Of a stretch of DNA of 64,000 bases, positions 3,364-62,273 are shown one piece after another; positions within the stretch are counted from its first letter, which is position 1; each line of letters opens with the position of its first letter. The stretch lies in NCBI RefSeq assembly GCF_035084215.1, contig NC_090325.1, positions 121,954,001-122,018,000 on the forward strand, in the 5' to 3' direction. The position numbers and the translations under genes are program-made. The DNA comes from Heptranchias perlo. Lineage: Eukaryota. Below the pieces are notes generated by a model. It searched no databases. It was not told the origin of the DNA and worked only from the letters and a program-made list of their open reading frames with translations.

Positions 3364-5243
3364 ATGAGCAGAGCAGCTACTGTGACGATTCTCATCCTGT
3401 TTCTGTGTGCCATTACTACACAGGGTATGTTGTCCTTTGTAATCTTGTGTTTTATTTCTCATTTCACTGTAATTACATAGAATTATGTAAAATAGTACAA
3501 TTCTAAAGGGGGTGCAGGATCAGAGAGACCTGGGGGGTATTCAGTAATTTTAAACCCTTTAACCCAGCACTTTATGATGATAAAAGATTTCCTTATAAAA
3601 AATATGATAGTCATCTCCAGTTTAATGTAATCAGCATGATTAATTTAGACAGATACCTAATATTTCCTTGTGGACCATATGTTGAAAAGATTAAAATATC
3701 TCAACTCTGATACAAAGTGCCAGGATTCTCTCCACCTCAATCGATAATTAAATCTAAGTTAAATGGATCTTTTCACAGGTATTCCAATTCCAGGCACTCA
3801 AGGTCGTTGCCTGTGCACTCAGAACAGCTCCAATTTTATCAATCCACGGCTCATCCGGAGTTTGAAATATATTCCCAAAGGATCCCACTGTGAGACACCA
3901 GAGATAATGTGAGTAAATGTGTCAGAACATCACCATTAACATTTCTCCTTCTGTGACGTTCATTTAATAAACTGTGCTCTTTATTCAAAATATGTTGGAT
4001 CAATCACAGTTTGTTTATGAGGCACATTCGAAGGATTTTCTTTTAATACTTTTGCTAATTTCTCACCTTTCAGTGGGAGACATCCAATTTCTGTGGATTA
4101 GATTTTAAAGGTTTACCTTCTCTTCACAGTGTTACCAAAAGAAATGGGAATAAATTATGTGTGAGTCCTGATGCCGAGTGGGTGAAGATTATCATTAAAG
4201 CCAAGAAAGGTTGGTGTTTGGCAGAATTAAGACTTTGCGTATGAATAAAAGCAGATACAGTGAATTGTTTTTTTAAACCATGTTTGCCCCTCTCCTCCTC
4301 GGTTGAAGGCGTTGACTCCTCTCTGCTATACATTCCCACAGGCTTTTGATGCCCCTGGTACTTTATTCAAGTGCTCATCATTTATGTGTGAGCCTTGACA
4401 GTGAATGTTAGCAAGCTATTCAACCACAGTTGGCATCAGGGCTGAGCCTTACACAAGCCTCACCCAACATCCAAATATGGCACTTCCAGGAGGGGGGGTC
4501 ACTGGATAGCAATCAGGTGAAGGAATGCTGGGTGATTTTATGCTCTCTCTCCCAACAATGCTGAGACCAATTGTCGTACCTTTAGGACCCAGCTGAGATC
4601 AGCCAATTAAGCACAAAACAGGGTCCTTAAGAATAAAATATTTAATATATATCTTCACTTTCATTTCCTTTTCCTGCTGCCTTCTTTCCTTTATGTTAGG
4701 CTCCACAATTTTCTGTTCTGCTGTTTGAAAACTGTAAACTACTTTTTGCGTCATGTTTTAACTTTTTATTATCCGTTCTATTTTACTCTTTAATGTAATG
4801 TGTTCCTGCAGACTCCCATCAGAACGAGGATTTTAAATCCATTTATTTTTTCAAGTTATACAGAAAAGTTGTTTGTGAAAATCTCGACCATCTATTCTCA
4901 CAGTTTTGTGTCATCCACCGTTGTCAGAACTCAGGATTTTGTTCAGCATTTACTGCCTTTGTATTATTCCGCAAATTTGCTTGATTCAACAGGATGGAAG
5001 GAAGAGAAATAATTTTTCTCTCTGGCCCCATGCATCCTGCATGTTAAACCATATTGCAAAATCAATGACTTGGGAATAAAATCATCAGTGTTAGCAATGC
5101 TGCTCATCTTGTGTAAAAGTCAGATTAATAATGCTCCATAATTATATTGCTGAAGATATTGTGCACTATATTAAAGTAAATATCTGTAGTTCGTGGTTAA
5201 AAGTAACTTTTATTTTATTTCAGGTGCCAGACGACACAACTGA
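3364..5243 (+). CDS. ELR-negative CXC chemokine gene 1 (CXCL9/10/11- or CXCL8-like), 96 aa; exons 3364-3424, 3779-3908, 4130-4209, 5224-5243
   Basis: Manual splicing with GT-AG introns (61+130+80+20 nt) gives MSRAATVTILILFLCAITTQG-IPIPGTQGRCLCTQNSSNFINPRLIRSLKYIPKGSHCETPEIIVTKRNGNKLCVSPDAEWVKIIIKAKKGARRHN*. It has a signal peptide, a C-X-C motif, C3 and C4, and a C-terminal WV helix. Exact orthology is unresolved. Confidence 0.95.
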
Positions 5244-5432
5244 GAAATGAAGCCGCAATGGGATGGACTCGACTCCACACCTGGTTAACCTAAAGTACAA
5301 TGAACGTTGAAATGAAGGAAGCTTTGTCCAGGGTGTTAATGCTCTGATATCACCTTCTGATAGCTTGTTCAAGTATTTTCCCTTCAGTGTTTTCTGAAAA
5401 TGATGTCACTGTTCAACCCTGTCACATTGTAA

Positions 5433-6400
5433 GCCTGGATATTAACTTGGAGCCGGGAAGAGAGTGGGGGGATGCTTATTGGACGGGAAACCTGGAAGTG
5501 AAGTTGGCGGGTCGGAATCTGCGATCCCAACTTAGTTGAAGGATAAAAATGTTACTTCTGTATATTGTGCCCAGTTGCCATCCAGATTGACAGGTTGACT
5601 GGATATCAGCCAGGGAGAGATCAGAGTCTTCGGTGTTTGCACGGTGGCGGCGGAGGGGGGCAGTCGGGGAGAGATCGGGATCCTTGGGGGCATGATGGGG
5701 AATGGGGGATGGGAGGAAGGTGAGCAGTCAGCCATTGCTGGGGAGGTAAGAAGTAGGCCATCGTTGTGGAGGTAAGAAGTAGGCCATCGCTGGGGAGGTA
5801 AGAAGTAGGCCATCGCTGGGGAGGTAGGAAGTAGGCCATCGCTGGGGAGGTAAGAAGTAGGCCATCGTTGGGGAGGTAGGAAGTAGGCCATCGCTGGGGA
5901 GGTAAGAAGTAGGCCATCGCTGGGGAGGTAAGAAGTAGGCCATCGCTGGGGAGGTAAGAAGTAGGCCATCGCTGGGGAGGTAAGAAGTAGGCCATCGCTG
6001 GGGAGTGGAGCAATCGGTAATTGTGGTGGTCTCGACAATCAGGAGGGGATCTATGTCATTGGGGGGGGTCCAGAACATCAGGGCGGGTCGGCCGATCATG
6101 GGGGTTACGATCGTGTCGGTGAGCTTGTTGGGCCTGGTGGAAACGTTCCTGCTCCTGGTCCACAAGCAGTGCAATAAAGGCACTGACCTCATCATCCAGC
6201 CCTTCTCGCCTCCTTTTCACTGGCGAGATGCACGAGCCCCGGGAAAGCATGCTGGAGGCGTAAAATTTAAAGTTAAGTCAAATTCAATTTATAAAGATCT
6301 ACTAACGTCTCACAGGGACGTTAATTGATTCTAGAAATACCCACCCACCTGAACTAATTAAGGTCCTGACTGCAGTGAGTAGGCTACTCGCACACATCTA
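5433..6400 (-). mobile_element. Non-autonomous element related to 1144-1913, inserted downstream of the gene 1 stop (copy 18897-19838)
   Basis: Reverse-complement matches to the family motifs CAACCTGTCAATCTGG and GCCTTTATTGCACTG. The right boundary is approximate. Confidence 0.65.
5732..6004 (+). repeat. 26-bp minisatellite (GGGGAGGTAAGAAGTAGGCCATCGCT) x10
   Basis: GGTA recurs every 26 bp from 5745 to 5979. This explains the repetitive ORFs in three frames. Confidence 0.97.
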
Positions 6401-7267
6401 AATGCGCCTCCGTTTGTGGAAGCAATTTCTCTGTAGAAATGATTTAGCGTGTAAAATACCGACATTTTCGAAGGTAGTGCTCCTTATTGTATGATATTAA
6501 CTGGAAGAAACAACATTTTTAAATAGAACTAATCTCTGTGCAGTGAGCAGTAGAAATCTTTGGCACTGAGGGATTTTTCACTGGGTCCAGTTGGCTGGAA
6601 GTTGTGTTGAGTATAACACTGATTTATCAGTCAGTAACGTTGCTACAAGTGACTTTTGTTGTGAATTAATCTTTTGAGTATTTTTGTACCTTTATCTTCA
6701 AATGTATTCAAGTGATTAAAATAAACATGATTTCATATGAAGAATGTATTGTCACTGTTCTTCAATCACCAGCAAAACAGTCGTGTGTCTCTCCAGTAAA
6801 TAAATTTAGTGGACTGACTAATAAAGAGAAATCTGTTCAGGATACACTTTAGACAATGATTGGCATCAACGAGGTGGGCAGGTTATTAAAATGGCAGGTG
6901 GAGGGAGTTCACACAGGGGCCTACTTTACAATCAAAACTCACGCCCAATTATGTCATTGGTGCCGCAATGCAATTTCAACTCAGGGATTCGGTGGGGACG
7001 GTGGGGGGGCGCTTCACGGGTCCAAACCAGACAGGCAGGTCATGGCGGTAGTCAGCAGAGTGGCCGGATGAGGCCATGGTAACTATTTTTATTTAACTTT
7101 TCTGAGGATTTGTCTGGGTCTCAAGGAGCAGGAGTGCTCCCCCGGGCCCAGCAAGGAGTCGTTGGGCCTCCCCTGCCCAGGCCTTCTTTCTCTCTCCCAG
7201 CAACAGCACCTGCTCTCAAATACCTTCAGCCATCCCAGCACTAACTTTATGCTGGGGGCTGTTCCCT

Positions 7268-8146
7268 TAGAAAGGATATGTTGGCCTCGGAGGGAGTGCA
7301 GTGTAGATTTACTAGAATGATGCCTGGACTCCAGGGGTTAAATTATGAGGAGAGATTACACAAACTCGGGTTGTATTCCCTGGAGTTTAGAAGATTAAGG
7401 GGTGATTTGATCGAAGTTTTCAAGATATTGAGAGGAACTGATAGGGTAGATAGAGAGAAATTATTTCTGCTGGTTGAGGAGTCTAGGACATGGGGATATA
7501 GTCTAAAAATTAGAGGCAGGAGTGAAGTTAGGAAACATTTCTATACGCAAAGGGTGGTAGAAGTTTGGAACTCTCTTCCGCAAACGACAGTTGATGCTAG
7601 CTCAATTGTTAATTTTAAATCTGAAATTGATAGATTTTTGTTAACCAACGATATGAAAGAGATATAGGGCTAAGGTGGGTATATGGAGTTAGGTCACAAA
7701 TCATTGAATGGCGGAACAGGCTCGAGGGGCTAAATGGCCTACTTCTGTTCCTGCGTTAAGGGGAGATTTAATAGAGGTGTTCAAAATCATGAAGTGTTTT
7801 GATAGAGTAAATAGGGAGAAACTGTTTCCAGTGATAGAATGATCAGTAATCAGAGAACACAGATTTAAGATAATTGGCAAAAGAACTAGAGGCGACATGA
7901 GGAAAAAATTTTTACACAGCGACTTGTTATGACCTGGAATGCACTGCCTGAAACGGTGGCGGAAGCAGATTCAACAGTAACTTTCAAAAGGAAATTGGAA
8001 AAATACTTGAAGTGGAAAAATTTGCAGGGCTATGGGGAAAGAGCAGGGGAATGGGACTAATTGGATAGCTCTTTCAAAGACCCGGCACAGGCACGATGGG
8101 CTGAATGGCCTCCTTCTGTGCTGTATTATTCTATGATTCTTATTCT
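7268..8146 (+). mobile_element. Two adjacent CR1-type LINE 3' fragments
   Basis: LEGVQ.RFTRMMPGL..LNYEERL.KLGLYSLEFRRLRGDLIEVFK is the CR1 ORF2 C-terminus. A second GDLIEVFK fragment starts at ~7757 and ends in an (ATTCTATG)-type tail. Confidence 0.9.
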
Positions 8147-9049
8147 ATCCCGGTGACTTCAAGCTCCCATTCAAATATCTGCTCCCATCCACCGGCCCTG
8201 ATGTCAATCCCGCTGGTTTTGGGCAGGAGCCAATGCTGCACTATTCAAATGAAGCCCAGGAACTAAAATGACTTGAGCATTGCGCTCATATCTCCGTGGG
8301 AGTTTCCCTCCTGCCCACACCCTGCCCAGGATGCCCTGAGTTAAAATCACCCCCCATAAGTGTTGGTTTCTCCAGAGTGAGCACTTGTCAGACGTCGTAC
8401 TTTTATTGAAGTGAAGTATCGGATAACTGTAACGTAACCAAGTTCTATAAAACTCTTAATACATGTGTGTGGAGACAATGTCAGTTTAGAGATCTTTGTT
8501 CATCACCGACAGGATGTTGGTTGCCCCCCATTTAATGTGGCAATAACCAATGAACTGATGAGGTTTAAGATCCAATCTTCCTGGGCCACCGTTGCTAAGG
8601 ACGCCAAATCAATTCCTGGGACCTTCATTGAGCTGAAACGTTGTCAAAGTTTTTTAGATTTTCTAATTAGATTAGGATTGGTCCCGGTCATGTCACCGGG
8701 CAGATCTTTTCCTCTCTGCTGCCTGAATAATGCAGTCATGCGGTGTTAACTGGGGTTGCTATTGAATTCTAACCAGGGGAAATATTATGGTGAATCGCCA
8801 AGTGGGAGGCAAGCATTCTACAGACATTGGAGGCACTAATCTCCCTTAGGTGTATGATCCGCCTGAATCCTAAGTGCTAATAACACTCAATTTTGTGGCC
8901 TAGCCTCATTTGGATATTTATTCACAATTGCTATGGAAACCCAGGTGGGTCGAGGGATGAAACAACTGGGAGGAGAAGAAAAGTGCGTGCAAGTCAAATT
9001 GAAAGGGATGGAGGCAAATAAAGAGGAGTGTCACAAGAAAGGAGACTAA

Positions 9050-9713
9050 GGCCCCGAATTTCCTGAAATTTGCACCAAAACAGCAGCAGAAGTGCAGCAT
9101 AATGCAAATTTTCAGGGCGAAGAATTAAGGAAATTTGTGCCTAAGTGACTTATGCCAGTTTTACGCTACGTCTCCGTTACCTTCATCTTTTGAATTGAAT
9201 CAGCGAAACCTCTACCGATTCCCTCTGCCGTTCATTAAAGCAGCGCAGGACGCCATCTTGGTAAAGGGCGTATTGAACACTGGCAGTATGCTCCTGGCAT
9301 TTACCTCCTCCACTTTTCCTCCACTTTTCCCTCCAACATATGGCTGGAGGGCCTCCTGGCCCCCTGTGGATACAGGATGAACCTCCTTCTCTCCATCTCT
9401 TGCAACAAGGCCTGCAGTGCATCATCAGAGAACCTTGGTGCACACTCCCTCCCAGATGCAGCCTTCCTTCAAAGTATCGTAGCACAGATTCAATTTTGAA
9501 ACGACTCCCACCACTTCTTGCAGCCACAATGTACCTCCCCTTTAAGAGGTGCAGGCTGCCTTCAAGAAGCGCGAGCAACTCGCGATATCGGGACTCCCTG
9601 CTGATGCGTGCAGCCAATCAACAGTGCAATTAGCGCTGGCTGCATGCAGCAGTCATTTAAAACAGCAGGCAGCGTTAATGTAACCTTTTCAGGGGATTAT
9701 CCAATTTAACCCT
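9050..9713. mobile_element. Probable Harbinger-derived non-autonomous element (copy ~21605-22268)
   Basis: GGCCCCGAATTT ... AATTTAACCC ends. Internal motifs (GCCATCTTGG, TTTAAGAG.TGCAGGCTGC, AGCAGGCAGC) are shared with the subterminal regions of the Harbinger at 28849-32945. Confidence 0.5.
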
Positions 9714-9934
9714 CGCCGTGCCTAATGTACATAAATCGTCGTCTGATGGCTTCACATTTTAATTTCGATACATAAAGTGGGGCTTCAATAAAAACATGGA
9801 GTAACTTCTGCACTGTCCTCAGGCCCCATTAGTTTAAGTTGATTTCCATTTGGTTTACGCTGGTTTTTACGTTCCTGAGATTATCACAAATTTTTCGTGT
9901 ACTTTTCTATATAGAAGTTGTTAAAACAAATCAA

Positions 9935-10065
9935 AGCATCTTACAGCACAGAACGATGCCATTCGAACCATCATGCCTGTGCTGGATCTTTGAAAGAGCT
10001 ATCCAATTAGTCCCACTCCCCTGCTCTTTCCCCATAGCTTGCAAATGTTTCCATTTCAAGTATTT
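9935..10065 (-). mobile_element. CR1 3'-end fragment (others at 10688-10817 and 22490-22620)
   Basis: Reverse complement of the CR1 tail at ~8000-8140. Confidence 0.75.
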
Positions 10066-10961
10066 ATGAAGTATGATTATCATAAAAGGGACAAGACTAC
10101 ATTGTGTTAAATCAAAACTGGAAAAATAGAACGATGCCCTCTCTTGTGAATATTCTTTTCATTTATTCATTTATTGTCATTTGCCTATTTATTGCTGAAC
10201 CAGGCAAACGTACGATACAAATATACAAACAGGTCAGGGAGCAGCAGAACATGTGATAAAATGTATTGCTTTTATGACATCCATTTCTCTTTCAACAGTA
10301 ATTGAATGAATAAAATCCGATGCTACTAATGGAGTCTTAAAACAAATTATCAGTGATAAGTAGATGGGAGCAAAGCCAAACATTGACCCAAAGAGTTACT
10401 TGGTGTATAAAACAATCTGATTTCTTGGAATTCACACGGGTTCACCAACACAGGCTGCTGTTTGAATGAAGTCTAACTCTGGAACTTCCTTAACCACTGA
10501 ACAAACCCCAGGGGGTGGAGTCACCACAGCTACACACTCAACATTTTCCAAATCTGGAAACTGAAACTTGAACCAGCTCCAGATATCCCTGAAGCTCTTA
10601 CGACATCACCAATGTACTAATGGACAGTGACTGTGATCGACATTTGTTGAGGGAAAAAGTGATATCAGCACAAGTTTTCTTACATTATAGAATCACAGAA
10701 TCTTACGTGCAGAAGGAGGCCATTCAGCCCATTGAAAGAGCTATCCAATTAGTCAAACTTTCCCGCTTATTCCCATAGCCCTGTAAATTTTCCTTTCCAT
10801 GTATATATCCAATTCCCATCACTCGCAGATTACTTGTGTGGTTGCTCTGGTTAGCGAGGGAGGGGGGATAGGCCTCGAGGTCTGAAAAGATTGGTGAGGG
10901 GTTAACAAGTGTTTGGTATCATTGGGATTGTGGAATATGGGGTCTGGTTTAGCACATGATT

Positions 10962-12357
10962 CCTGGATCTCAATGTTAACCCCCACATGATGGGTGGGAG
11001 AGAGTCGGAGTGGGGGGGTTAAAAAATTAAAACGGGGACTGCGTCCGGAAACCATCGCGTCCGTGCCCAGTGCCATTTTTACAGCGGGGGTTAGAGTGAC
11101 ATGAGAGTCTCCCACCCTCGAGGGATGGGACATTTTATTAACATATTTAAATCAGGCTCCCCCGGTCCCTCAAAGAAGCCTTCGGCCTCCCCACTGCTTA
11201 ACGCGGCCTCTCTCTACCCTCTACTACGACCACCCCCACAAAAGCTCCGTACTCTCACTCCCTCCCTCCCGATGACTGCTCTCTTCCACCCCCCCCACAA
11301 GCCCCGTTCTGTAGCTCCCTCTATCCCGATTGCCACGGAGAGCCCCGAAGTTTCCTCTTCTGCCTCCTCCTGCCACTGGTTTTCCCGTCCAGCCAGCCTG
11401 TCAATTTGGCAGAAAATGGAAGGAAAACATTTGAATGAGGTGCTGCCGTTAAATTCGGCAGGACGTCCGCGTCCCCGGCCTTGCCAGGTTTTCCCCACTA
11501 CCGCAGCCCCCTGCAGACTCCCTGCCGCCCTGTAGATTTCAGGCCCCTGGGAGGCAATTTTAACTCCCAAAAACAGGTGGGTTGGGGGTGGGTGGGCAGT
11601 AAAAATAGTTTGTTTTTGGAGTGGGACTGCATCCAGACTCAAATGCGCTCACTTCCGGGTTTAATCAATGGGTGTTTCGATAACAGAAACCTGGAAATCC
11701 GGTCCCCATTTAAAGCCGACGGGCCAATGTTGAAATGGGCAATGCGCCTCATTGCAATAGTTGAGGCACTTAATTTTTTGTGTATTAGAAATGTCAAAGG
11801 AATTTTACCTTACCGTTCGGGTTTCCCATCGCTTCTGATTCACGTCAGGTGAAAGCAGGCGGGAGGGACTGGATCCATGAGGTGAGTCCCTTTATTGCAC
11901 TGCTTGTGGGCCCGGAGGTGCTTCATCCAGGCTCAACAGGCCCACTTGGCGTAATCGGACCCACCCGATCAGCCGACCCCTGCACCTCCCCATGGTGGAC
12001 CCCCCGATGCTAAACCCCAACCCCCTGCTGCTGGACCCCCTCCGATCTCCGATCTTCTCCAAGGCCTACCCGATGTTGTCCACGTGCCCCCACCTCTCCC
12101 CACCCACCAATTTCTTCCACGGCGCATGATCGCTCTCTCCTTCTCTCCCCCTTCTCCGATTTGCGACTCCTTTCCCTCCTGACAGACAACCATCCTGTCA
12201 ATCTGGCTGACTGATGTGTGGGAAACCCGGAAGCACAAATACCTACCTTCAATTGAGTTGTGATCGGATATCGTGATGCACTCACTTGACTTCTGGGTGC
12301 CCCATGTAAATATCTACGCACACACTGGGTTCCCAGTCCGAGCTTAAATCATGCCCC
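10962..12357. mobile_element. Two abutting Harbinger-type non-autonomous elements (10962-11547 and 11548-12357); copies ~25600-26992
   Basis: The second element has the same ends and internal motifs as 1144-1913. The first shares the AGCCAGCCTGTCAAT motif and ends GATTTCAGGCCCC. Confidence 0.6.
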
Positions 12358-15300
12358 ACACGTAATAACACTGAGATGGAGATCCTGATGTCTGATGAAA
12401 AGAGACAGCCTGTCAGCTCGGGAAAGATAGGAGACAGCACTTCAGGCAGGTATGGGTGTAGGACAGGAAGATCACTGGAGGGGGAAGTGCTGTAATCATT
12501 GAAATGAATTTAAAGGAGCTTGGTACGATTATTGCACGTAATATCATATTATTTTTAATTAATATGAAATGATATTTAAGTTAAACCTAAAGATGCTGGA
12601 ACTGATGGTTGGAGTTGCTGACAGCAGGGTCACTCTGAGTTGGGAGATTCAAGTCAGGAATTAGGAGAACTGGGGGGGGTGGTGTCATGTGAGAAGAAAG
12701 AGACAATCAGATAAATAAAGGAATCGGGTTAAAGGTAGTGGAGCCAAGATTTGTGGGGTGGGAGAGGGATGAACTGGAATAGATCACCCGCAAGAGGCCA
12801 GGAATCTGGGGCAGAGCCTGGATCCAACAGATTTAAGAAGTGGCCCATGGATTGATTGGGGTGGGCTGTGGGTAAGTCTTACGTTGCGTGACCCGTGCCC
12901 GCAGTCAGCATTGAGGACATGTCAGGTGGTGTTCCCAGTCTGTGCTGTGAATTCCACTCAGCATTGCTTCGTTCAGCTCAGTAGAAGCCACGTCTGATGA
13001 GATTAGACATTGGCTCCATTCTGGGCCTGGTGAATTCTCCAGACAACTCAAGAATTAAAGGTAATCGATCCCAGAGGGGATGGATATCCTCACACTGCTG
13101 GACTTTATCTTCCTGTGGAAAAGTTATTTTTAATTTTAATCTTGCACCTTTGGCCCTGTGAGGACCTCTGCCTCCCCCATCCCCATTGGAATGGCAGGGT
13201 GCAGCTCCAATTTTATGGCTCATCCTTGGGGTGGGTACCTCTGCAGCACTGAAATAGGTCAGGCAGCCTGCTTCATTTACTAAAAGGGATCCAGCCCTGT
13301 GATTTAGGACCGGGCCAACATCCTCACCCGTTGTCAAATAGGATCCTGCTCTGCTGCACTTCCAGTGGTGGAGCCAGGACCCTGGATTTTCAGGTCAGTA
13401 AGTTTCATCGTGATCGAAAAGCATTTCTGATAGGTGTGACCACCCACACTCGCTCCCAGTGAGGATCCTGTCATTGATCAATTGGAATACTCAATCTTTC
13501 ATCCATTTTTATATATAATGTTGAATACTCTGACCGAAAACGCATTGCAGATGAAAATTCATCACATCCAACATCCACAAATATATCTGCACCATTACAG
13601 CTTTTCACAATCAGAACATGCACTTTTTAAATGAGCAAAGATGCATCTCAGCTGTGCACCTCATGTTATCAAGTTCGAGGATGGCTCATTTCCTGTAGTT
13701 CACAAGTTTCAGCTGAGCGATGTGTTTCCTTTTTATTTTTACCCAAGGATCAGTTCCAAGTCTGTAAATTGACCTCGTCCCGTGGGTCAAATACAAAATG
13801 TGGAACTGGAATATTCTGCAGTCAATCTGAAACTGTTCACCTGGGGAAAAACAGCTAATGTACGAATAATCATACCTTGTGATATGTGGATCTCTGCAAA
13901 GTCTCAATCGCATTTTAACTTTGTGTCAACCATGGCTGTTTAATTAAAAAACAATTAAGAAAATATCCACTAACTAAAGAATATTCAGGGATGAGAAAAG
14001 GTCACTTTGCCCATTGAGCTCATCACTGGTGTTTATTAACTCACTCAACCTAAAATCCCACAGCATCTGGAACTTGTCTAAAGTCTCTGATTTCATTACC
14101 CTGCCTGGCACATTATTTGAAATGTTTATCACCTTTTGAGTGAAAGATTTTTTTCTAAAATGTTTCAATGTACTTTTTACTATTTTAAACATATGTTCTC
14201 CTATTCAGCCGTCCTGACTGACCTTCCAGCAATATTGTGGGCTTACCTTATTTATGCTATTTGATAGCATATAAGTAGTAGCGAGATCTCCCATTAACCA
14301 AAGTGTTGGCTTTATGAGCTGTGATTGTATATTAAAAATAGAATGATAGAATATGCAAATGACTGCTGTCAAATTTTGAAAAATGTCAGCAGATATTATA
14401 ATAAATGATCAAGATTCTCTTCTGTTGTTAAATATATGAACCTCCTTTTGTATCTTCAGAACTACATACATTGGAAAGAATTACAAGGAATGGGTATGGA
14501 GCAAACTCCAATACCCATTGACGTAGTGTTCACTAATATACCACTCGTCCCTGTATAATATAATACAGCCCTGACTGTAATAACAACTGAAGTAACACTC
14601 ATTCATTTACAACAGCTCCTGATGGAGCATGTAGGGACAATGAGACTCTAACATAGGAAATATACACAGTAAAATGTTCTCTCTATAGCTTGCATGTCTC
14701 AATAGAAACGCCCTCATGTGTACAACATTAGTTATCACATTCTCATATTTCATGACACCTGATCCCTATTCTCTCTAATGTTGAAATAAAGGAATATAAA
14801 ACACCTTGCACGCTTTTAACTATGACCTACATACAATTAGAAACATCAAGTAAATGTAACAGTTCCTGTTCATGTTTCCCATCACTTCTGATTCATGTCA
14901 GGTGAAAGCAGGTGAGAAGGAACAATCCATGAGATGAGTGCCTTTATTGCACTGTCAGCAGGCCAGGAGGAGCAGGAGTTCTTCATCCAGACCCCAAGCT
15001 CACCAGGCATAATCGGACCCACCCCATCGGCCGACCACTCCCCACTGATGCTGGACTGCCCCTGATGCTGGACCCCATCACACCCCGAATGCTAAACCCC
15101 CACATAATGCTGGATCCCCCACCCCGATTGTCTCGAAGGCCAACCCGATTTCTTCCATGGCCCACGATTTATCTCTCCCTCCCTCCCCCCTCTCCAACTC
15201 ACAGCTCCATTCCCTTCCGACAGGCAGCCAACCTGTCAATCTGGCTGCCTGGTGCACACATACTTACCTTCAATTGAGTTGCGATTACAGTTTGCGATGC

Positions 15301-16600
15301 ACTCACTTGACCTCCGGTTTCCCTGCATGAATATCTAAGGACATGCTGGGTTCCTGGACCCGAGCTAAAATCATGCCCTTGCTCTCCTGGTGCTGAATCT
15401 CACGCGAGGATTTCCAGATCAGAAAATCTGATGCAAAGATGATCGTGTGTCTTATGTGGCACTCCCAATCTTCAAGGTATTAAAATGATCCATATATCAA
15501 TGATCACTAGTCAAGAACAGTTGTCAATAGAATAGAAATTATGATAATTTCTAGTCTATTGGTTACTGACCTTGACTAGTGATCATTGATATAGAGATAA
15601 ATTAATCACTTGAAGATCGTTTGAAGAAGAAGGCTCACCACCACCTTCTCAGGACGACTAGGGGTGGGCAATAAATGCCAGCCTTCTCGCGATGCCCATA
15701 TCCTGAGAATGAATCATTTAAAATAAAGACTAGAAATCACCGTCGATCACATCATGCTGTGGACACTTAATGAGCATTTATCAAATTCTTCTGTCTGGCA
15801 CCAAACTTGCAAGAAAACATCTCTGTACGTGCAATAACACTGAAGATATTTCTATTCCTGAGTTCGAGCTGCTGCATCATCAGGCTGAAAATTCATTGCA
15901 AGTGGCAAGTGTAATTTACTTTAGAACTACATTTACATCATTGCAGCTCTTTCGAAACTTGGGACATTAAAGTCTAAAGAGTCACGGCATGATGTTCAGC
16001 CAGTGAAAGAGAGAGTTATTTCCTCTAAATCACAAGCTTTAGCTCCATTGTCTGGTCTGGTTTTCTCTAATTATAGTGAGAAAGATCAGTGTTAAAAATG
16101 CATTGAGGAGTTCCCCAGTGGGTCAGGTGTAAGACCTGGAACTGGATTATTCTGCAGCTTATCTGAGGCTACTTGCTTGGGAACAACATTAAACAAATTA
16201 TGTGGCACGATCTTATCAGTGTTTAATTGTCTGTCATTTACGGTTGTGTAAAAACAAAAGGAAGATTTTATCAACAACACTCCATAAGGACTTGACCACA
16301 TGATCTTTGACATAAAAAAATCGAAAAATTCAATTTCAGAGGGGGCACAAAATGGGCAGTAGCAGATCAGCCATCAATGGAAATTAAATGGAAAGAAACA
16401 TTCAGCAGGATATGTAACGGGTGACTGACCTGCAACCACCCTTTTCATGCCCTTGCCTCAGTTGAATATTATCCCCATTTTTCTAAAAATTGCAGTTAAT
16501 TCTTTAAAATGAACACATAATTCACCACCTATAGCAACAGATTATCTGCCTTTTGCCATTGTAAACTATGTACAAGTTATGAATATATTTAACACTGCAG

Positions 16601-16718
16601 AAGTGAAAGAACCTCTGACTCAGGAGCTTGGAAATTCCCTTCCACAGGAGCTTCCTATGTTTGACAATTTTTACTGCTCGAGATTATGCAAATTGAGAGT
16701 AGAGGATCTCAATAAATG
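16601..16718 (+). promoter_or_regulatory. Proximal promoter of gene 2
   Basis: AAGTGAAA (IRF-core-like) 16601-16608; TGACTCA; TGGAAATTCCC 16629-16639 (GGGAATTTCC on the minus strand); ATGCAAAT. Confidence 0.7.
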
Positions 16719-16827
16719 GGAGCTCATTGGACCTCTCTTCAACAGAACTTCATTCAGCAGAGAGAGAGTCACTGAGGTGGACAGAAGATCCTTCAGCAGA
16801 AATCCATTCAGCAACTCAAAGTCAAAG

Positions 16828-18707
16828 ATGAGCAGAGCAGCTACTGTGACGATTCTCATCCTGTTTCTGTGTGCCATTACTACACAGGGTATGTTGTCCT
16901 TTGTAATCTTGTGTTTTATTTCTCATTTCACTGTAATTACATAGAATTATGTAAAATAGTACAATTCTAAAGGGGGTGCAGGAACAGAGAGACCTGGGGG
17001 GTATTCAGTAATTTTAAACCCTTTAACCCAGCACCTTATGATGATAAAAGATTTCCTTATAAAAAATATGATAGTCATCTCCAGGTTAATGTAATCAGCA
17101 TGATTAATTTGGACAGATACCTAATATTTCCTTGTGGACCATATGTTGAAAAGATTAAAATATCTCAACTCTGATACAAAGTGCCAGGATTCTCTCCACC
17201 TCAATCGATAATTAAATCTAAGTTAAATGGATCTTTTCACAGGTATTCCAATTCCAGGCACTCAAGGTCGTTGCCTGTGCACTCAGAACAGCTCCAATTT
17301 TATCAATCCACGGCTCATCCGGAGTTTGAAATATATTCCCAAAGGATCCCACTGTGAGACACCAGAGATAATGTGAGTAAATGTGTCAGAACATCACCAT
17401 TAACATTTCTCCTTCGGTGACGTCCATTTAATAAACTGTGCTCTTTATTCAAAATATGTTGGATCAATCACAGTTTGTTTATGAGGCACATTCGAAGGAT
17501 TTTCTTTTAATACTTTTGCTAATTTCTCACCTTTCAGTGGGAGACATCCAATTTCTGTGGATTAGATTTTAAAGGTTTACCTTCTCTTCACAGTGTTACC
17601 AAAAGAAATGGGAATAAATTATGTGTGAGTCCTGATGCCGAGTGGGTGAAGATTATCATTAAAGCCAAGAAAGGTTGGTGTTTGGCAGAATTAAGACTTT
17701 GCGTATGAATAAAAGCAGATACAGTGAATTGTTTTTTTAAACCATGTTTGCCCCTCTCCTCCTCGGTTGAAGGCGTTGACTCCTCTCTGCTATACATTCC
17801 CACAGGCTTTTGATGCCCCTGGTACTTTATTCAAGTGCTCATCATTTATGTGTGAGCCTTGACAGTGAATGTTAGCAAGCTATTCAACCACAGTTGGCAT
17901 CAGGGCTGAGCCTTACACAAGCCTCACCCAACATCCAAATATGGCACTTCCAGGAGGGGGGGTCACTGGATAGCAATCAGGTGAAGGAATGCTGGGTGAT
18001 TTTATGCTCTCTCTCCCAACAATGCTGAGACCAATTGTCGTACCTTTAGGACCCAGCTGAGATCAGCCAATTAAGCACAGAACAGGGTCCTTAAGAATAA
18101 AATATGTAATATATATCTTCACTTTCATTTCCTTTTCCTGCTGCCTTCCTTCCTTTATGTTACGCTCCACAATTTTTTGTTCTGCTGTTTGAAAACTGTA
18201 AACTACTTTTTGCGTCATGTTTTAACTTTTTATTATCCGTTCTATTTTACTCTTTAATGTAATGTGTTCCTGCAGACTCCCATCAGAACGAGGATTTTAA
18301 ATCCATTTATTTTTTCAAGTTATACAGAAAAGTTGTTTGTGAAAATCTCGACCATCTATTCTCACAGTTTTGTGTCATCCACCGTTGTCAGAACTCAGGA
18401 TTTTGTTCAGCATTTACTGCCTTTGTATTATTCCGCAAATTTGCTTGATTCAACAGGATGGAAGGAAGAGAAATAATTTTTCTCTCTGGCCCCATGCATC
18501 CTGCATGTTAAACCATATTGCAAAATCAATGACTTGGGAATAAAATCATCAGTGTTAGCAATGCTGCTCATCTTGTGTAAAAGTCAGATTAATAATGCTC
18601 CATAATTATATTGCTGAAGATATTGTGCACTATATTAAAGTAAATATCTGTAGTTCGTGGTTAAAAGTAACTTTTATTTTATTTCAGGTGCCAGACGACA
18701 CAACTGA
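16828..18707 (+). CDS. CXC chemokine gene 2, duplicate of gene 1; exons 16828-16888, 17243-17372, 17594-17673, 18688-18707
   Basis: Same exons at offset +13464. The coding sequence appears identical to gene 1 and the splice sites are intact. Confidence 0.94.
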
Positions 18708-19195
18708 GAAATGAAGCCGCAATGGGATGGACTCGACTCCACACCTGGTTAACCTAAAGTACAATGAACGTTGAAATGAAGGAAGCTTTGTCCAGGGTGT
18801 TAATGCTCTGATATCACCTTCTGATAGCTTGTTCAAGTATTTTCCCTTCAGTGTTTTCTGAAAATGATGTCACTGTTCAACCCTGTCACATTGTAAGCCT
18901 GGATATTAACTTGGAGCCGGGAAGAGAGTGGGGGGATGCTTATCGGACGGGAAACCTGGAAGTGAAGTTGGCGGGTCGGAATCTGCGATCCCAACTTAGT
19001 TGAAGGATAAAAATGTTACTTCTGTATATTGTGCCCAGTTGCCATCCAGATTGACAGGTTGACTGGATGTCAGCCAGGGAGAGATCAGAGTCTTCGGTGT
19101 TTGCATGGTGGCGGCGGAGGGGTGCTGTCGGGGAGAGATCGGGATCCTTGGGGGCTTGATGGGGAATGGGGGATGGGAGGAAGGTGAGCAGTCAG

Positions 19196-19442
19196 CCATT
19201 GCTGGGGAGGTAAGAAGTAGGCCATCGCTGGGGAGGTAGGAAGTAGGCCATCGTTGTGGAGGTAAGAAGTAGGCCATCGTTGTGGAGGTAAGAAGTAGGC
19301 CATCGTTGTGGAGGTAAGAAGTAGGCCATCGTTGTGGAGGTAAGAAGTAGGCCATCGTTGTGGAGGTAAGAAGTAGGCCATCGTTGTGGAGGTAAGAAGT
19401 AGGCCATCGTTGTGGAGGTAAGAAGTAGGCCATCGCTGGGGA
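19196..19442 (+). repeat. 26-bp minisatellite x9 (paralog of 5732-6004)
   Basis: One unit fewer: the duplication offset drops from 13464 to 13438 across the array. Confidence 0.97.
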
Positions 19443-22400
19443 GTGGAGCAATCGGTAATTGTGGTGGTCTCGACAATCAGGAGGGGATCTATGTCATTGG
19501 GGGGGGTCCAGAACATCAGGGCGGGTCGGCCGATCGTGGGGGTTACGATCGTGTCGGTGAGCTTGTTGGGCCTGGTGGAAACGTTCCTGCTCCTGGTCCA
19601 CAAGCAGTGCAATAAAGGCACTGACCTCATCATCCAGCCCTTCTCGCCTCCTTTTCACTGGCGAGATGCACGAGCCCCGGGAAAGCATGCTGGAGGCGTA
19701 AAATTTAAAGTTAAGTCAAATTCAATTTATAAAGATCTACTAACGTCTCACAGGGACGTTAATTGATTCTAGAAATACCCACCCACCTGAACTAATTAAG
19801 GTCCTGACTGCAGTGAGTAGGCTACTCGCACACATCTAAATGCGCCTCCGTTTGTGGAAGCAATTTCTCTGTAGAAATGATTTAGCGTGTAAAATACCGA
19901 CATTTTCGAAGGTAGTGCTCCTTATTGTATGATATTAACTGGAAGAAACAACATTTTTAAATAGAACTAATCTCTGTGCAGTGAGCAGTAGAAATCTTTG
20001 GCACTGAGGGATTTTTCACTGGGTCCAGTTGGCTGGAAGTTGTGTTGAGAATAACACTGATTTATCAGTCAGTAACGTTGCTACAAGTGACTTTTGTTGT
20101 GAATTAATCTTTTGAGTATTTTTGTACCTTTATCTTCAAATGTATTCAAGTGATTAAAATAAACATGATTTCATATGAAGAATGTATTGTCACTGTTCTT
20201 CAATCACCAGCAAAACAGTCGTGTGTCTCTCCAGTAAATAAATTTAGTGGACTGACTAATAAAGAGAAATCTGTTCAGGATACACTTTAGACAATGATTG
20301 GCATCAACGAGGTGGGCAGGTTATTAAAATGGCAGGTGGAGGGAGTTCACACAGGGGCCTACTTTACAATCAAAACTCACGCCCAATTATGTCATTGGTG
20401 CCGCAATGCAATTTCAACTCAGGGATTCGGTGGGGACGGTGGGGGGCGCTTCACGGGTCCAAACCAGACAGGCAGGTCATGGCGGTAGTCAGCAGAGTGG
20501 CCGGATGAGGCCATGGTAACTATTTTTATTTAACTTTTCTGAGGATTTGTCTGGGTCTCAAGGAGCAGGAGTGCTCCCTCGGGCCCAGCAAGGAGTCATT
20601 GGGCCTCCCCTGCCCAGGCTTTCTTTCTCCCTCCCAGCAACAGCACCTGCTCTCAAATACCTTCAGCCATCCCAGCACTAACTTTATGCTGTTCCCTTAG
20701 ATTCCCGGTGGCTTCAAGCTCCCATTCAAATATCTGCTCCCATCCACCGGCCTTGATGTCAATCCCACTGGTTTTGGGCAGGAGACAATGCTGCACTATT
20801 CAAATGGAGCCCAGGAACTAAAATGGTTTGAGCTTCACGCTCATATCTCCATGGGTGTTTCCCTCCTGCCCACACCCCGCCCAGGATGCCCTGATTTAAA
20901 ATCACCCCCCATAAGTGTTGGTTTCTCCAGAGTGAGCACTTGTCAGACGTTATACTTTTATTGAAGTGAAGTATTGGATAACTGTAACGTAACCAAGTTC
21001 TATAAAACTCTTATTACATGTGTGTGGAGACAATGTCAGTTTAGAGATCTTTGTTCATCACCGACAGGATGTTGGTTCCCCCCCATTTAATGTGGCAACA
21101 ACCAATGAATTGATGGGGTTTAAGATCCAATCTTCCTGGGCCACCGTTGCTAAGGACGCCAAATCAATTCCTGGGACCTTCATTGAGCTGAAGCTTTGTC
21201 ATTGTTTTTTAGACTTTCTAATTAGATTAGGATTGGTCCCGGTCATGTCACCGGGCAGATCGTTTCCTCTCTGCTGCCTGAATAATGCAGTCATGCGGTG
21301 TTAACTGGGATTGCTATTGAATTCTAACCAGGGGAAATATTATGGTGAATCGCCAAGTGGGAGGCAAGCATTCTGCAGACATTGGAGGCACTAATCTCCC
21401 TTAGGTGTATGATCCGCCTGAATCCTAAGTGCTAATAACACTCAATTTTCTGGCCTAGACTCATTTGGATAATTATTCACAATTTCAGTGGAAACCCAGG
21501 TGGGTCGAGGGATGAAACAACTGGGAGGAGAAGAAAAGTGCATGCAAGTCAAATTGAAAGGGATGGAGGCAATTAAAGAGGAGTGTCACAAGATAGGAGA
21601 CTAAGGCCCCGAATTTCCTGAAATTTGCACCAAAACAGCAGCAGAAGTGCAGCATAATGCAAATTTTCAGGGCGAAGAATTGAGGAAATTTGTGCCTAAG
21701 TGACTTATGCCAGTTTTATGCTACGTATCAGTTACCTTCATCTTTTGAATTGAATCAGCGAAACCTCTACCGATTCCCTCTGCCGTTCATTAAAGCAGCG
21801 CAGGACGCCATCTTGGTAAAGGGCGTATTGAACGCTGGCAGTATGCTCCTGGCATTTACCTCCTCCACTTTTCCTCCACTTTTCCCTCCAACATATGGCT
21901 GGAGGGCCTCCTGGCCCCCTGTGGATACAGGATGAACCTCCTTCTCTCCATCTCTTGCAACAAGGCCTGCAGTGCATCATCAGAGAACCTTGGTGCACAC
22001 TCCCTCCCAGATGCAGCCATTCATCAAAGTATCGTAGCACAGATTCAGTTTTGAAACGACTCCCACCACTTCTTGCAGCCACAATGTACCTCCCCTTTAA
22101 GAGGTGCAGGCTGCCTTCAAGAAGCGCGAGCAACTCGCGATATCGGGACTCCCTGCTGATGCGTGCAGCCGATCAACAGTGCAATTAGCGCTGGCTGCAC
22201 GCAGCAGTCATTTAAAACAGCAGGCAGCGTTAATGTAACCTTTTCAGGGGATTATCCAATTTAACCCTCGCCATGCCTAATGTGCATAAATCGTCGTCTG
22301 ATGGCTTCACATTTTAATTTCGATACATAAAGTGGGGCTTCAATAAAAACATGGAGTAACTTCTGCACTGTCCTCAGGCCCCATTAGTTTAAGTTGATTT

Positions 22401-38831: not shown

Positions 38832-38968
38832 ACAAAACCAAAATACTGTGGATGCTGTAATCTGAAATAAAAACAGAACATGCTGGAAACATTTAGCAGG
38901 ACAGGCAGTATATGTGGAGGGTGAAACAGAGTTAACATTTCACGTCGATGACCTTTCATCAGAACGGT
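38832..38968 (-). mobile_element. Short Penelope-type repeat with a degenerate hammerhead motif in the gene 3 promoter
   Basis: Minus strand reads GTT-CTGATGA-A-AGGTC-ATC-GACGT-GAAA-TGTT-AAC. It is flanked by AAGA(T/G)TTAAAG repeats and is homologous to 55078-55208. Confidence 0.7.
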
Positions 38969-58752: not shown

Positions 58753-60241
58753 CAACTATTTTGGTGATGATTGAGAAAAAGTATTAAAAAAATATTCTTC
58801 ATAAGAAATCTAGTTTATTTTAATCGCTTAAATACATTTTAGTTAACAAGTACAAAAACATTTAAAGAATTCATTCACACACACAGGTCAAATGTGGAAA
58901 CTCTACACTCAATATAACTGTAACACACAGTTCTTTCATGAGACTTTTGGTCAATCGGACCCAGTCAATGAAAAATTCCTTAGTGCTTTTGTAGCAACAG
59001 ATTTTTACTGATCACTGTACAGAGGTCAGTTCTATTTACAAACGTTAGTTCTTCTTATAATATCATACATTAAGGAGCACTACCATCCAAAATGTGGGTA
59101 CTTTATACAGAATAAGACTGATTGAAACTACCATCCGAGAATGGGTGGGCATCGGCCAGATGGCAGCATAAACGGGGCGATGAGTGACCCAATGCCATTT
59201 CGGGCCACTGATGCCCCATTTACACCAGGGGTAGGGCATTAAGATTGGCCTTAATATCATTTCTACAGAGAATTTCCTTTTCACAAACTTCAGTTTTGGA
59301 TAGATTCTGAGGTGTGATGTTTTATAGAGCAAACCACAAGGTTCCCTTAAAATGTCAGTGACCAATAAACACTGCAGTAAAATGGTATCAATATTAGTGA
59401 CAGGCAATGTTATTGTATTTTAATATCTTGCCATCATTATATCATATAGGATTTCAGCAGGAAAGGAAAAATTGCACCAAATTTGGTTCGTGAATGAGTT
59501 TGAAATAACGTAACATTACAGTATATCTACAAGTAATAAAATGGAGGAATGTGTTTATATAATTGACAAAATTAATGGTCACTGCAAACCCCTCTCAGAC
59601 TATTTTAGTAGAAATAACAAAGGATAATTATTCCAATCTGGACACTTAAGGATCGTCAACCTCTCATTCTAGGCAAAACATAGAGCAGTGAGGAGGTAGT
59701 GTGTGATCAAGAAATTATACAAGTTCATTTTGAACAATATTTCTGTGGAGAATTGGGTGACATGCAATGCACGTAATAACTGGTATTTTTTGTCCCATTT
59801 TGTCCCATTTAGATTCCTTTGCAAGTACACAAATCTATTCATATTTCCTCCTGTACCTGCATCTTTTGTTGATTGGAAATGATTTTCCAAAAATTATGGA
59901 GAACTGTAAACAAATTGAATTCAGTCGCAATATAACTTGTAACAGTCTACACTTAAAAATCGTACACATCACACCCTGTGAAAGAAACCTCAGTCTTGGC
60001 ACCAAGTTTCACAACAAACCTCTGACTGTTTCCTTAGGCCTCGGCTAAACAATTACAGTGTGACAAAGTTGAAATGTGAAATCATTTTCAGAAAACAATG
60101 ACGTGAAAATACTCAAACAAACTATCGGAAGGTGACATCAGAGAGTTAACACCCTGGACAAAGCTTCCTTCATTGCAACGTTCATTGTACTTCAGGTTAT
60201 CCAGGTGTGGAGTCGAGTCCATCCCATTGCGGTTTCATTTC

Positions 60242-62273
60242 TCAGTTGTGTCGTCTGGCACCTGAAATAAAATAAATTGCATTTTTAATTGAAATCTTTC
60301 CAACTAATATTCACTTTAATATAGTGCACAATATCTTCAACAACAAAATTATGAAACATTAGTCGATCTCCTGTGGCATTGCACATGGAGAGTCAAGACA
60401 ATGTATAATCTTCAAGGCAGCAGAATGGGGGGCAGGGGATAACTGGACATGGGCGAGCAGATGTAATTCAGTATCTATTTTAACTTCATACTTTCTGTCC
60501 TTATTTTTAAAGTTCCATTATAAGTTCCTATGTCCAGATTGCTAATGGAAACCGCCTGTAATTAAACCCCCCTGCAGTTGTGGTGCTGGAGCGCTGAAGT
60601 CAAATATTTGATGTATTATAAATAGAATATGAACCTCACTTTAATACAAGGTGACTAGCATTGCTAATGGTTGTGATTTTGTTAATAATTCATTCTAATT
60701 TAATTGACCTTGCATAATAATTTTAATGTGCATGATATAGGGGAGCGGAGAGAAAGGCTCTGAATTTCCCGGGGACAGCCGTGCACTCCCAGTGTAGGTC
60801 AGTCAGGAATGCAGCACAGGGCGCAGAAAATTGTACAGGAACCAGAAACACCAGGTGCTAGCTCAGGTGATGAATTTCCCTCGGGGCCATTTTGGGATGG
60901 AAACTCCATCTGCTCCAATTACAATTCATGACTTAGGAAGGAGTGGGGCCGGGGGAGGAAATTCCTTGTGGCTGGCCTCCCTAATGCTGAGTGACCTGGT
61001 GTACAGGTCTGCTCTGCAGTGGAAGTGGTGTCCACTTGGAGGTCCAGCCCTGGGTGCTTGCCTGAGACCCTAATGAGAATTCCAGCACAACAATTGTTTT
61101 CGGTCCCGATATAAATGTGCGGAGGATTTTCAACCGTAAAAACTTTCTATCCTGGAGATTCAGGCACATTTAAACAATAATGGAGAAGCAGTAAATTATA
61201 AATCAAATTTTGAGAGCTGGCAACAGCGAATAACTCAAAAATGGCAGGATAGATGGTCTGCCTTTTGCTTAGCATCTTCTCTATTTAACATGAAAAAATA
61301 TATGCATTTAAAATCTTAATTCTAGTTTTTTTTTATTCATACGCAAATTCTGAATTCTGACAAACACCAAACACCAACCTTTTTTGGCTTTAATGATAAT
61401 CTTCACCCACTCAGCATCAGGACTCACACATATTTTGTTCCCATTTCTTTTGGTAACACTGTGAAGAGAAGGTAAACCTTTAAAATCTAATCCACAGAAA
61501 TTGGATGTCTCCCACTGAAAGGTGAGAAATTAGCAAAAGTATTAAGAGAAAATCCTTCAAATGTGCCTCATAAACAAACTGTGATTGATCCAAAATGTTT
61601 TGAATAAAGAGCACAGTTTATTAAATGGACGTCACAGAAGGAGAAATGTTAATGGTGATGTTCTGACACATTTACTCACATTATCTCTGGTGTCTCACAG
61701 TGGGATCCTTCGGGAATATATTTCAAACTCCGGATGAGCCGTGGATTGATAAAATTGGAGCTGTTCTGAGTGCACAGGCAACGACCTAGGGTTCCTGGAA
61801 CTGGAATACCTGTGAAAAGATCCATTTAACTTAGATTTAATTATCGATTGAGGTGGAGAGAATCCTGGCACTTTGTATCAGAGATGAGATATTTTAACTT
61901 ATTCTACAATGGTCCACAAGGAAATATTAAGTATCTATCCAAACTAATCATGCTGATTATATTAACCTGGAGATGACTGCCTTATATTTTTTATAAAAAT
62001 CTGCAAGGAAATCTTTTATAAACATAAAGTTCTGGGTTAAAGGGGATTAAGATTATTGAATGCAGCTCTGTTTGAGAATTCAGCATTATTCGATGCATAA
62101 CCAAACATCACACCGGGACATGTGTAGCTGGATCAGTAACTCAACAGAAAGACTCCTTTCCACAATACAGTATAATGAGAAATAAAACACAAGATTACAA
62201 AGGACAACATACCCTGTGCAGTAATGGCACACAGAATCAGGATGAGAATCGTCACAGTAGCTGCTCTGTTCAT
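60242..62273 (-). CDS. CXC chemokine gene 4 (inverted), 96 aa; exons 62273-62213, 61809-61680, 61458-61379, 60261-60242
   Basis: Reverse-strand spliced product MNRAATVTILILILCAITAQG-IPVPGTLGRCLCTQNSSNFINPRLIRSLKYIPEGSHCETPEIIVTKRNGNKICVSPDAEWVKIIIKAKKGARRHN*, with GT-AG introns. Confidence 0.95.
60756..61086. mobile_element. Probable MITE in intron 3 of gene 4
   Basis: GGCTCTGAATTTCC ... GAGAATTCCAGC ends. GC-rich and absent from intron 3 of genes 1/2. Confidence 0.4.

What the first reader, a model, noticed from the sequence alone, without database searches (positions are those of the whole stretch)
3364..62273. Actively expanding cluster of four ELR-negative CXC chemokines with mixed CXCL8 and CXCL9-11 features
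Seen: four intact 4-exon genes. Established: a 61-nt first coding exon, an X-Pro mature N-terminus and GRCLC resemble CXCL10/CXCL11, while GSHC..EIIV and C.{5}WV..II resemble CXCL8/CXCL13. Inference: this may be a lineage-specific cartilaginous-fish chemokine subfamily rather than a 1:1 ortholog. The genes are easily missed because the exons are short.
Basis: partly seen in the sequence, partly recalled or inferred. Interest (0 to 1): 0.7.

Follow-up and report, generated by a model that had tools for sequence, protein, structure and literature searches.

The report
Shark CXCL22-type chemokine tandem array
These are four of seven neighbouring, spliced copies of a shark immune-signalling (CXC chemokine) gene, in a cluster already catalogued in other sharks and rays; they likely attract white blood cells during inflammation, through a receptor that is still untested.

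Summary
The four intact 4-exon, ELR-negative CXC genes are real. RNA-type contigs join all three introns of the g1 type and of g3. Three more copies lie just upstream, so the array has seven. It is not a new subfamily. Exons of 61/130/80 nt, intron phases 1-2-1, QGR before CXC and the order CNOT6L - two CXCL13-like genes - array - AGR gene - TNIP match the chondrichthyan 'cluster B' tabulated in eight elasmobranchs, with 5-11 rows each (PMC10801876 Dataset S1). An elephant-shark-only group at this position was named CXCL22a-d in 2013 (PMC3568907); that lead came from an earlier scan note on another locus and genome. NCBI already holds the proteins as 'interleukin-8-like'. Added here: g3 belongs to an old shark-ray lineage, while the other six form a young clade of this genome, in units about 98% identical. 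Promoters carry NF-kB, AP-1 and C/EBP motifs but no full ISRE or GAS. Affinity to CXCL9-11, CXCL13 or CXCL8 is unresolved. Ordinary birth-and-death cluster; receptor untested.

The parts
3152..3252 (+). g1 proximal promoter motifs: AP-1 (3152), NF-kB (3165), second kB-like site (3183), C/EBP (3220), TATA-like AATAAA (3247)
   Evidence: Consensus scan; consensus patterns recalled; function untested
3364..3424 (+). g1 exon 1 coding part (61 nt, predicted signal peptide, phase-1 intron follows)
   Evidence: joint to exon 2 in contigs of 3 of 4 runs
3779..3908 (+). g1 exon 2 (130 nt; QGR then CXC at nt 30; third cysteine)
   Evidence: joint 3908-4130 in 2 of 4 runs
4130..4209 (+). g1 exon 3 (80 nt; fourth cysteine, WV; phase-1 intron follows)
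   Evidence: joint to exon 4 in 2 of 4 runs
5224..5243 (+). g1 exon 4 coding part with stop; contig cover continues to about 6712 as a likely 3' UTR
16828..18707 (+). g2: exons 16828-16888, 17243-17372, 17594-17673, 18688-18707; coding DNA identical to g1
   Evidence: lies in a 5.9-kb block 97.9% identical to the g1 block
39288..41403 (+). g3: exons 39288-39348, 40527-40656, 40894-40973, 41387-41403; the old, divergent paralog (GRCKC type)
   Evidence: all three joints in run X2 by pieces with no other letters; clade with shark and ray proteins 98/93
60242..62273 (-). g4: inverted copy; exons 62273-62213, 61809-61680, 61458-61379, 60261-60242
   Evidence: an exon-3 contig with 4 other letters than g1 equals g4's 4 differences, which suggests it is transcribed
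1378..28848 (+). Recent segmental duplication blocks (93-98.5% identity) that carry g1 and g2
   Evidence: Self-BLAST

Best explanation
This is a seven-copy tandem array of spliced shark CXC chemokine genes belonging to the chondrichthyan cluster B (likely the CXCL22 group), whose products are predicted to be secreted, basic chemoattractants that are likely switched on by NF-kB during inflammation and likely recruit leukocytes through a CXC receptor, most likely a CXCR3-like one. Shown: gene structure, splicing, neighbours, family membership, copy history. Inferred steps: (1) the signal peptide is cut at the exon 1/2 boundary, leaving an Ile-Pro start that dipeptidyl peptidase 4 could trim; (2) the four cysteines form the usual chemokine fold, and the basic surface (pI 9.6-10.2) holds it on glycosaminoglycans as a gradient; (3) the AP-1/kB/C-EBP module drives induction; (4) receptor odds: CXCR3-like about 45%, CXCR1/2-like 30%, CXCR5-like 15%, other 10%. 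Six copies arose by recent unequal crossing-over with some gene conversion and mainly add dosage; g3 is an older paralog with a different N-loop and so perhaps a different receptor preference.
For: Structure 61/130/80/17 nt without stop, phases 1-2-1, CXC at nt 30 equals the cluster B rows of PMC10801876 Dataset S1. Neighbours: CNOT6L exon at C1:121.641 Mb (best PDB hit CNOT6L, E 3e-27); two NSR genes at 121.70 and 121.76 Mb, minus strand; AGR gene at 122.037 Mb, minus strand; TNIP-type exon at 122.205 Mb. The catshark order is the same, down to a last plus-strand gene with a 14-nt exon 4 like g3. JCHAIN and the CXCL8-like cluster are 40 Mb away. Spliced joints. Pro23 is kept in 97% and the four cysteines in 97-100% of 39 family members. 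An NF-kB match lies at -197 to -211 in 7 of 7 copies, AP-1 in 5 of 7, C/EBP at -144 in 6 of 7; the human IL-8 promoter uses these three sites (PMC2213657, passages). The genome holds a CXCR3-like tandem pair. Young clade 100/96, g3 clade 98/93; units 98.0-98.7% identical over 17-25 kb.
Against: No functional data for this family were found. The free trees keep the family apart from bony-vertebrate CXCL9-11 (separating branch 88/80; 89/86 and 81/88), although the AU test does not reject their union (p 0.28-0.31). No full ISRE or GAS in 600 bp upstream of 7 of 7 copies, unlike interferon-driven CXCR3 ligands (recalled); an IRF half-site is present in 6 of 7. The seven promoters are paralogous, so not independent, and a kB match occurs by chance 0.16 times per 600 bp. 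No elephant shark sequence was retrieved, so identity with CXCL22a-d rests on position and exon pattern. The runs are contigs guessed to be RNA; the X1-X4 runs are one sample, and g1, g2 and u2 cannot be told apart.
Confidence: 0.72

Rival explanations
1. They work like IL-8: ELR-negative granulocyte attractants acting on the expanded CXCR1/2-like receptors, whatever their position in cluster B.
For: The family profile scores CXCL8 highest in PDB (63.8 bits against 56.7 for CXCL10). The WV motif and a G-x-H-C motif are shared with CXCL8-like proteins (alignment rows). IL-8-like promoter motifs. About seven full-length receptor ORFs cluster at C7:3.56-3.98 Mb; the one tested is closest to CXCR1/2. 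Most teleost inflammatory chemokines lack ELR (PMC6145007, start of abstract in listing).
Against: A separate cluster A with SLR/NLR-type genes lies next to JCHAIN and is the natural ligand set for these receptors. Exon sizes and phases differ from cluster A (64/136/84, 1-2-2). Union with shark cluster A had the lowest AU value (p 0.09, not rejected).
Confidence: 0.3
2. The family is a tandem offshoot of CXCL13, its direct neighbour, and acts on CXCR5 in B-cell zones.
For: Adjacent to the two NSR genes that group with CXCL13 (91/69). Forcing the family together with CXCL13 costs only 0.05 log-likelihood units (p 0.43). In the neighbour-joining tree of PMC3568907 CXCL22a-d are listed right after CXCL13 genes (text of the figure only). 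Both have a 61-nt exon 1.
Against: CXCL13-like NSR genes already exist, with another structure (61/133/84, 1-2-2). An inducible-type promoter and rapid copy turnover fit inflammatory better than homeostatic chemokines (established pattern, recalled).
Confidence: 0.15
3. Part of the 'active expansion' is an assembly artefact: g1, g2 and u2 are alleles or duplicated contigs placed in tandem.
For: Three copies have identical coding DNA; RNA contigs cannot tell them apart.
Against: Flanks differ by 1-2% with indels and different unit lengths (13.5, 18.9, 18.9, 13.5 kb). The 204-kb region has no N. u3 carries a u1/g4-type exon 1 inside a g1-type unit, as gene conversion would leave. Other elasmobranchs show arrays of 5-11 rows.
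Confidence: 0.08

Closest known systems
Chondrichthyan CXCL cluster B, phase 1-2-1 genes (Kawasaki et al. 2024, PMC10801876, Fig. 2 legend and Dataset S1)
   Same: Exons 61/130/80/17, phases 1-2-1, QGR or LGR before CXC at nt 30, E and WV, basic pI, position between cnot6l plus NSR genes and AGR gene plus tnip3, multi-copy array with inverted members.
   Different: This species is not in the table. The paper gives no tree, promoter or function for these genes.
CXCL22G (CXCL22a-d of elephant shark; Nomiyama et al. 2013, PMC3568907, Table 1 and synteny supplement)
   Same: Group found only in a cartilaginous fish; tandem genes directly after CNOT6L-like and CXCL13.
   Different: Elephant shark rows in Dataset S1 have 58/130/77-nt exons and RAR/SAH instead of QGR. 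No elephant shark protein came up, so sequence-level orthology is untested.
CXCL9/10/11 (cluster B of bony vertebrates, CXCR3 ligands)
   Same: ELR-negative, basic; mammalian CXCL10-type proteins also begin G|IP after the signal peptide (P0156); GRC-x-C in caecilian and coelacanth cluster B proteins (P0154, P0181); assigned to the same cluster by PMC10801876.
   Different: Not grouped in the free trees; WV motif kept; no full ISRE or GAS upstream.
CXCL8 and shark cluster A
   Same: Similar sequence scores, WV motif, NCBI's automatic name, AP-1/kB/C-EBP promoter motifs.
   Different: No ELR/SLR/NLR; other exon sizes and phases; 40 Mb from JCHAIN and cluster A.

Membership tests
CXC chemokines (PF00048) | CXC plus two further cysteines in an IL8 domain | tested here: met
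CXC chemokines (PF00048) | Cleaved signal peptide ending at the exon 1/2 boundary | not tested
   No predictor run here; hydrophobic exon 1 seen; SignalP value of 2 given for the orthologs in PMC10801876 Dataset S1
Chondrichthyan cluster B (PMC10801876) | Four exons, intron phases 1-2-1, sizes 61/130/80 | tested here: met
   7 of 7 copies; joints
Chondrichthyan cluster B (PMC10801876) | QGR-type triplet, CXC at nt 30 of exon 2, E and WV | tested here: met
   QGR in 4 of 7, LGR in 2, LGH in 1; LGR and QGH variants are also in Dataset S1
Chondrichthyan cluster B (PMC10801876) | Between cnot6l with NSR genes and tnip3 | tested here: met
   the TNIP exon's best PDB hit is TNIP1, so the name TNIP3 rests on position
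CXCL22G (PMC3568907) | Tandem genes next to CXCL13 and CNOT6L in a cartilaginous fish | tested here: met
CXCL22G (PMC3568907) | Sequence clusters with elephant shark CXCL22a-d | not testable with these tools
   No elephant shark hit; one supplement (.doc) of the paper cannot be read
CXCL9/10/11 | ELR-negative, basic, X-Pro start | tested here: met
   the start depends on the inferred cleavage site
CXCL9/10/11 | One clade with bony-vertebrate CXCL9-11 | tested here: inconclusive
   Not recovered; AU p 0.28 and 0.31; 70 columns only
CXCL9/10/11 | Interferon-response elements (ISRE or GAS) in the promoter | tested here: not met
   0 of 7 in 600 bp by recalled consensus; IRF half-site in 6 of 7
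CXCL9/10/11 | Signals through CXCR3 | not testable with these tools
   CXCR3-like genes exist; binding needs an assay
CXCL8 / cluster A | ELR, SLR, NLR or DLR before CXC | tested here: not met
   0 of 7
CXCL8 / cluster A | Exons 64/136/84, phases 1-2-2, next to JCHAIN in sharks | tested here: not met
CXCL13 | Gene directly beside CNOT6L that groups with CXCL13 | tested here: not met
   The two NSR genes hold that place and group with CXCL13 at 91/69; a sister relation is not rejected

The most novel reading that the evidence does not exclude
This array is the cartilaginous-fish counterpart of CXCL9-11, signalling through CXCR3-like receptors, but wired to an IL-8-type NF-kB/AP-1/C-EBP promoter. 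Interferon control of CXCR3 ligands would then be a later invention of bony vertebrates. One paralog (g3 type) has been kept since before sharks and rays split, while its sisters re-expand in each lineage.
Probability: 0.2. Interest if true: 0.55.

Novelty: new member of a known kind. Interest (0 to 1): 0.24.

Why it matters
As it stands, little: one more shark shows a cluster already tabulated in eight elasmobranchs. It does show that the database name 'interleukin-8-like' is misleading for these genes and that CXCL22 is the likely proper name. It also lays out a cheap test of an open question: what sharks use as CXCR3 ligands. Two ligand types (g1, g3) and candidate receptors (CXCR3-like pair, CXCR1/2-like cluster) are located in one genome.

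Tried and rejected
A genome search with PF03372 for CNOT6L returned only long single-exon matches, as retrotransposon endonucleases give, and none near the locus; CNOT6L was then found by exon scanning. A search for sequence strings in the supplements of PMC10801876 found nothing, since the tables hold no sequences. No run was on record as RNA; the seven listed are guesses, so only their spliced joints were used, not depth. Broad tree: two rows were cut wrongly (P0207, P0069) and the family was not one clade (26% of bootstrap trees); 19 of 66 rows (bad cuts, long branches, redundant rows) were dropped. Group labels rest on source names for some rows (30 of 150 representatives were named) and on my reading of motifs for the rest. 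None of five AU tests rejected a placement. dN/dS gave no sign of positive selection: g1 against g3 dS 0.35, dN 0.19; young pairs have too few changes. The promoter control was weak: exon 1 was found for only 2 of 7 CXCL8-like loci, and one of them also has a kB site. The receptor tree picked a wrong frame for 3 of 15 loci. PMC10529500, PMC6238376, PMC10792014 and 10.1101/693333 (passages only) said nothing on this family. No structure or complex was predicted: the fold is not in doubt, and the controls offered would not tell one chemokine receptor from another.
Full report
Observation. A six-frame motif scan found four CXC exons in the window. Models built from the DNA give four intact genes, g1, g2, g3 on the plus strand and g4 on the minus strand, with coding exons of 61, 130, 80 and 20 nt (17 in g3), GT-AG introns and products of 95-96 aa. 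The exon sizes give intron phases 1-2-1. g1 and g2 are identical in coding DNA; g4 differs by 12 nt and g3 by 53 nt over 90 codons. Pfam IL8 is hit by 4 of 4 single exons.

Extent. A genome search with exon 2 gave 20 matches, seven of them at 67-100% identity within C1:121.906-122.016 Mb. The three outside the window (u1-u3) are intact too. Six copies differ by 0-12 nt over exons 1-3; g3 differs from all by 49-55 nt. Blocks of 17 and 25 kb are 98.0% and 98.7% identical, and starts are spaced 13.5, 18.9, 18.9 and 13.5 kb, which fits unequal crossing-over (inference). u3 has the exon 1 of u1 and g4 inside a g1-type unit, which fits gene conversion (inference).

Expression. No listed run was on record as RNA. 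Contigs of runs X1-X4, one sample, cover the exons and skip the three introns of g1 at GT..AG in 3, 2 and 2 of 4 runs. For g3 the three joints appear in 1, 3 and 3 of 4 runs; X2 pieces match without other letters, and run X5 of another organism shows a close relative. g1, g2 and u2 cannot be told apart. Contigs say nothing on level or tissue.

Relatives. The spliced g1/g2 and g3 products are already in NCBI/UniRef as 'interleukin-8-like' (P0001, P0010). Profile searches returned 66 of 69 and 73 of 74 hits with shark or ray labels; outsiders scored E 6.6e-13 or worse. In the unindexed search of 50% representatives (150 of 706 hits shown), single-domain family members scored 164, 137 and 120 bits and the best single-domain outsider 84; multi-domain proteins scored higher by summing domains. 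So no bony-vertebrate protein stands out as a 1:1 ortholog.

Prior description. PMC10801876 (whole text, Datasets S1 and S2 read; S3 and S4 only searched) states that chondrichthyan cxcl genes with phases 1-2-1 all lie in cluster B. Dataset S1 lists, for eight elasmobranchs, 5-11 rows per species, pseudogenes included, mostly with exons 61/130/80/17, QGR, CXC at nt 30, E and WV, between cnot6l with its NSR-type genes and tnip3. This genome has the same order: CNOT6L exons at 121.62-121.65 Mb, two NSR genes on the minus strand, the seven copies, an AGR gene on the minus strand, and a TNIP-type exon at 122.205 Mb. JCHAIN lies at 162.49 Mb beside the CXCL8-like cluster A. An earlier scan note on a different locus in another genome pointed to PMC3568907. 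Its Table 1 and synteny supplement (passages, section 8, supplement 6 part 2, supplement 7 part 1) name an elephant-shark-only group, CXCL22a-d, directly after CNOT6L-like and CXCL13. One supplement (.doc) could not be read and may hold the sequences. Membership in cluster B is therefore shown; the name CXCL22 is likely but rests on position and exon pattern.

History within the family. In a tree of 69 proteins (96 columns), g1, u1, u3 and g4 form one clade (100/96); g2 and u2 were left out as identical to g1. g3 sits in a clade of 11 with sawshark, horn shark, zebra shark, basking shark, catshark, smooth-hound and three ray proteins (98/93). Many other species also show their own small clades. 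So one old paralog persists while the others re-expand or homogenise lineage by lineage. g3's promoter and exon 1 are about 90% identical to g1's against 75% for exon 2; conversion or constraint could each explain this.

Deeper affinity. With 47 rows and 70 columns the family is a clade (100/99) in an unresolved group with CXCL8-like and CXCL13-like proteins, apart from CXCL9-11 (88/80). AU tests reject no placement: with CXCL9-11 p 0.28 and 0.31, with CXCL13 p 0.43, with all CXCL8-like p 0.35, with shark cluster A p 0.09. The 'mixed features' are thus what a separate old lineage looks like in a short protein; they do not show a chimaera.

How it likely works. The mature protein is predicted to start Ile-Pro, from the cleavage site that Dataset S1 gives for orthologs; Pro23 is kept in 97% of 39 members, and X-Pro starts are DPP4 substrates (recalled). 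Mature pI is 9.6-10.2, and the six young copies carry one N-glycosylation sequon. Upstream, 7 of 7 copies have an NF-kB match near -200 from the ATG and AATAAA near -117, 5 of 7 AP-1, 6 of 7 C/EBP, 6 of 7 an IRF half-site, and none a full ISRE or GAS (patterns recalled; copies not independent). The human IL-8 promoter depends on such sites, chiefly NF-kB (PMC2213657, passages). The genome offers a CXCR3-like tandem pair at C45:12.03 Mb (first tested: CXCR3 296 bits, CXCR2 266) and a CXCR1/2-like cluster on C7 (one tested); a CXCR3-like gene was reported in little skate (PMC9252580, passage). I commit to an inducible inflammatory chemoattractant, with CXCR3-like as the likeliest receptor on the grounds of cluster position, absence of ELR-like triplets and the existence of a separate CXCL8-like set. 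The receptor step is weak.

Verdict. Real, expressed and correctly described, but a new member of a catalogued shark and ray cluster in its usual multi-copy state. Six paper searches found no functional study of the family, so receptor and inducer remain open. Interest 0.24.

Noticed in passing
window 29834-32702: A PIF/Harbinger-type transposon between g2 and g3: DDE_Tnp_4 ORF on + (29834-30583, E 4e-33) facing a Myb/SANT-like ORF on - (32229-32702) and a 311-aa open frame (30785-31717).
   Followed up: partly
window 32385-38887: A gene-free direct tandem duplication of 3.27 kb, 97.4% identical, just upstream of g3; it includes sequence like the far upstream region of g1 and g4.
   Followed up: no
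window 5731-6005 and 19195-19443: A 26-bp minisatellite (10.6 and 9.6 copies) inside the likely 3' UTR of g1 and g2, covered by contigs.
   Followed up: no
window 45814-47617, 53220-53762, 57482-58246: Retrotransposon remains: two reverse-transcriptase fragments and a weak GIY-YIG (Penelope-like) frame; the third frame had no Pfam hit.
   Followed up: partly
G000:C1:122036843-122039518 (L061, L062), minus strand: A divergent AGR-type CXC gene closes the array; its exon 1 is 83% identical to g1's over 47 nt, but the mature part is on a very long branch. Catshark and whale shark have it in the same place.
   Followed up: partly
P0070 (Scyliorhinus torazame label): A 249-aa shark protein with three chemokine domains in a row. 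Whether this genome has it, for example among the hits at C1:162.32-162.37 Mb, was not checked.
   Followed up: no
G000:C7:3.56-3.98 Mb: Seven full-length and two partial chemokine-receptor ORFs on one strand; the one tested is CXCR1/2-like: an expanded receptor cluster.
   Followed up: partly
G000:C4:95425680 (L013), C39:14.39-14.45 Mb, C4:4.45-4.49 Mb: Further chemokine exons off chromosome C1, including a CXCL8-like exon on C4 and CXC exons on C39; possibly paralogous loci.
   Followed up: no
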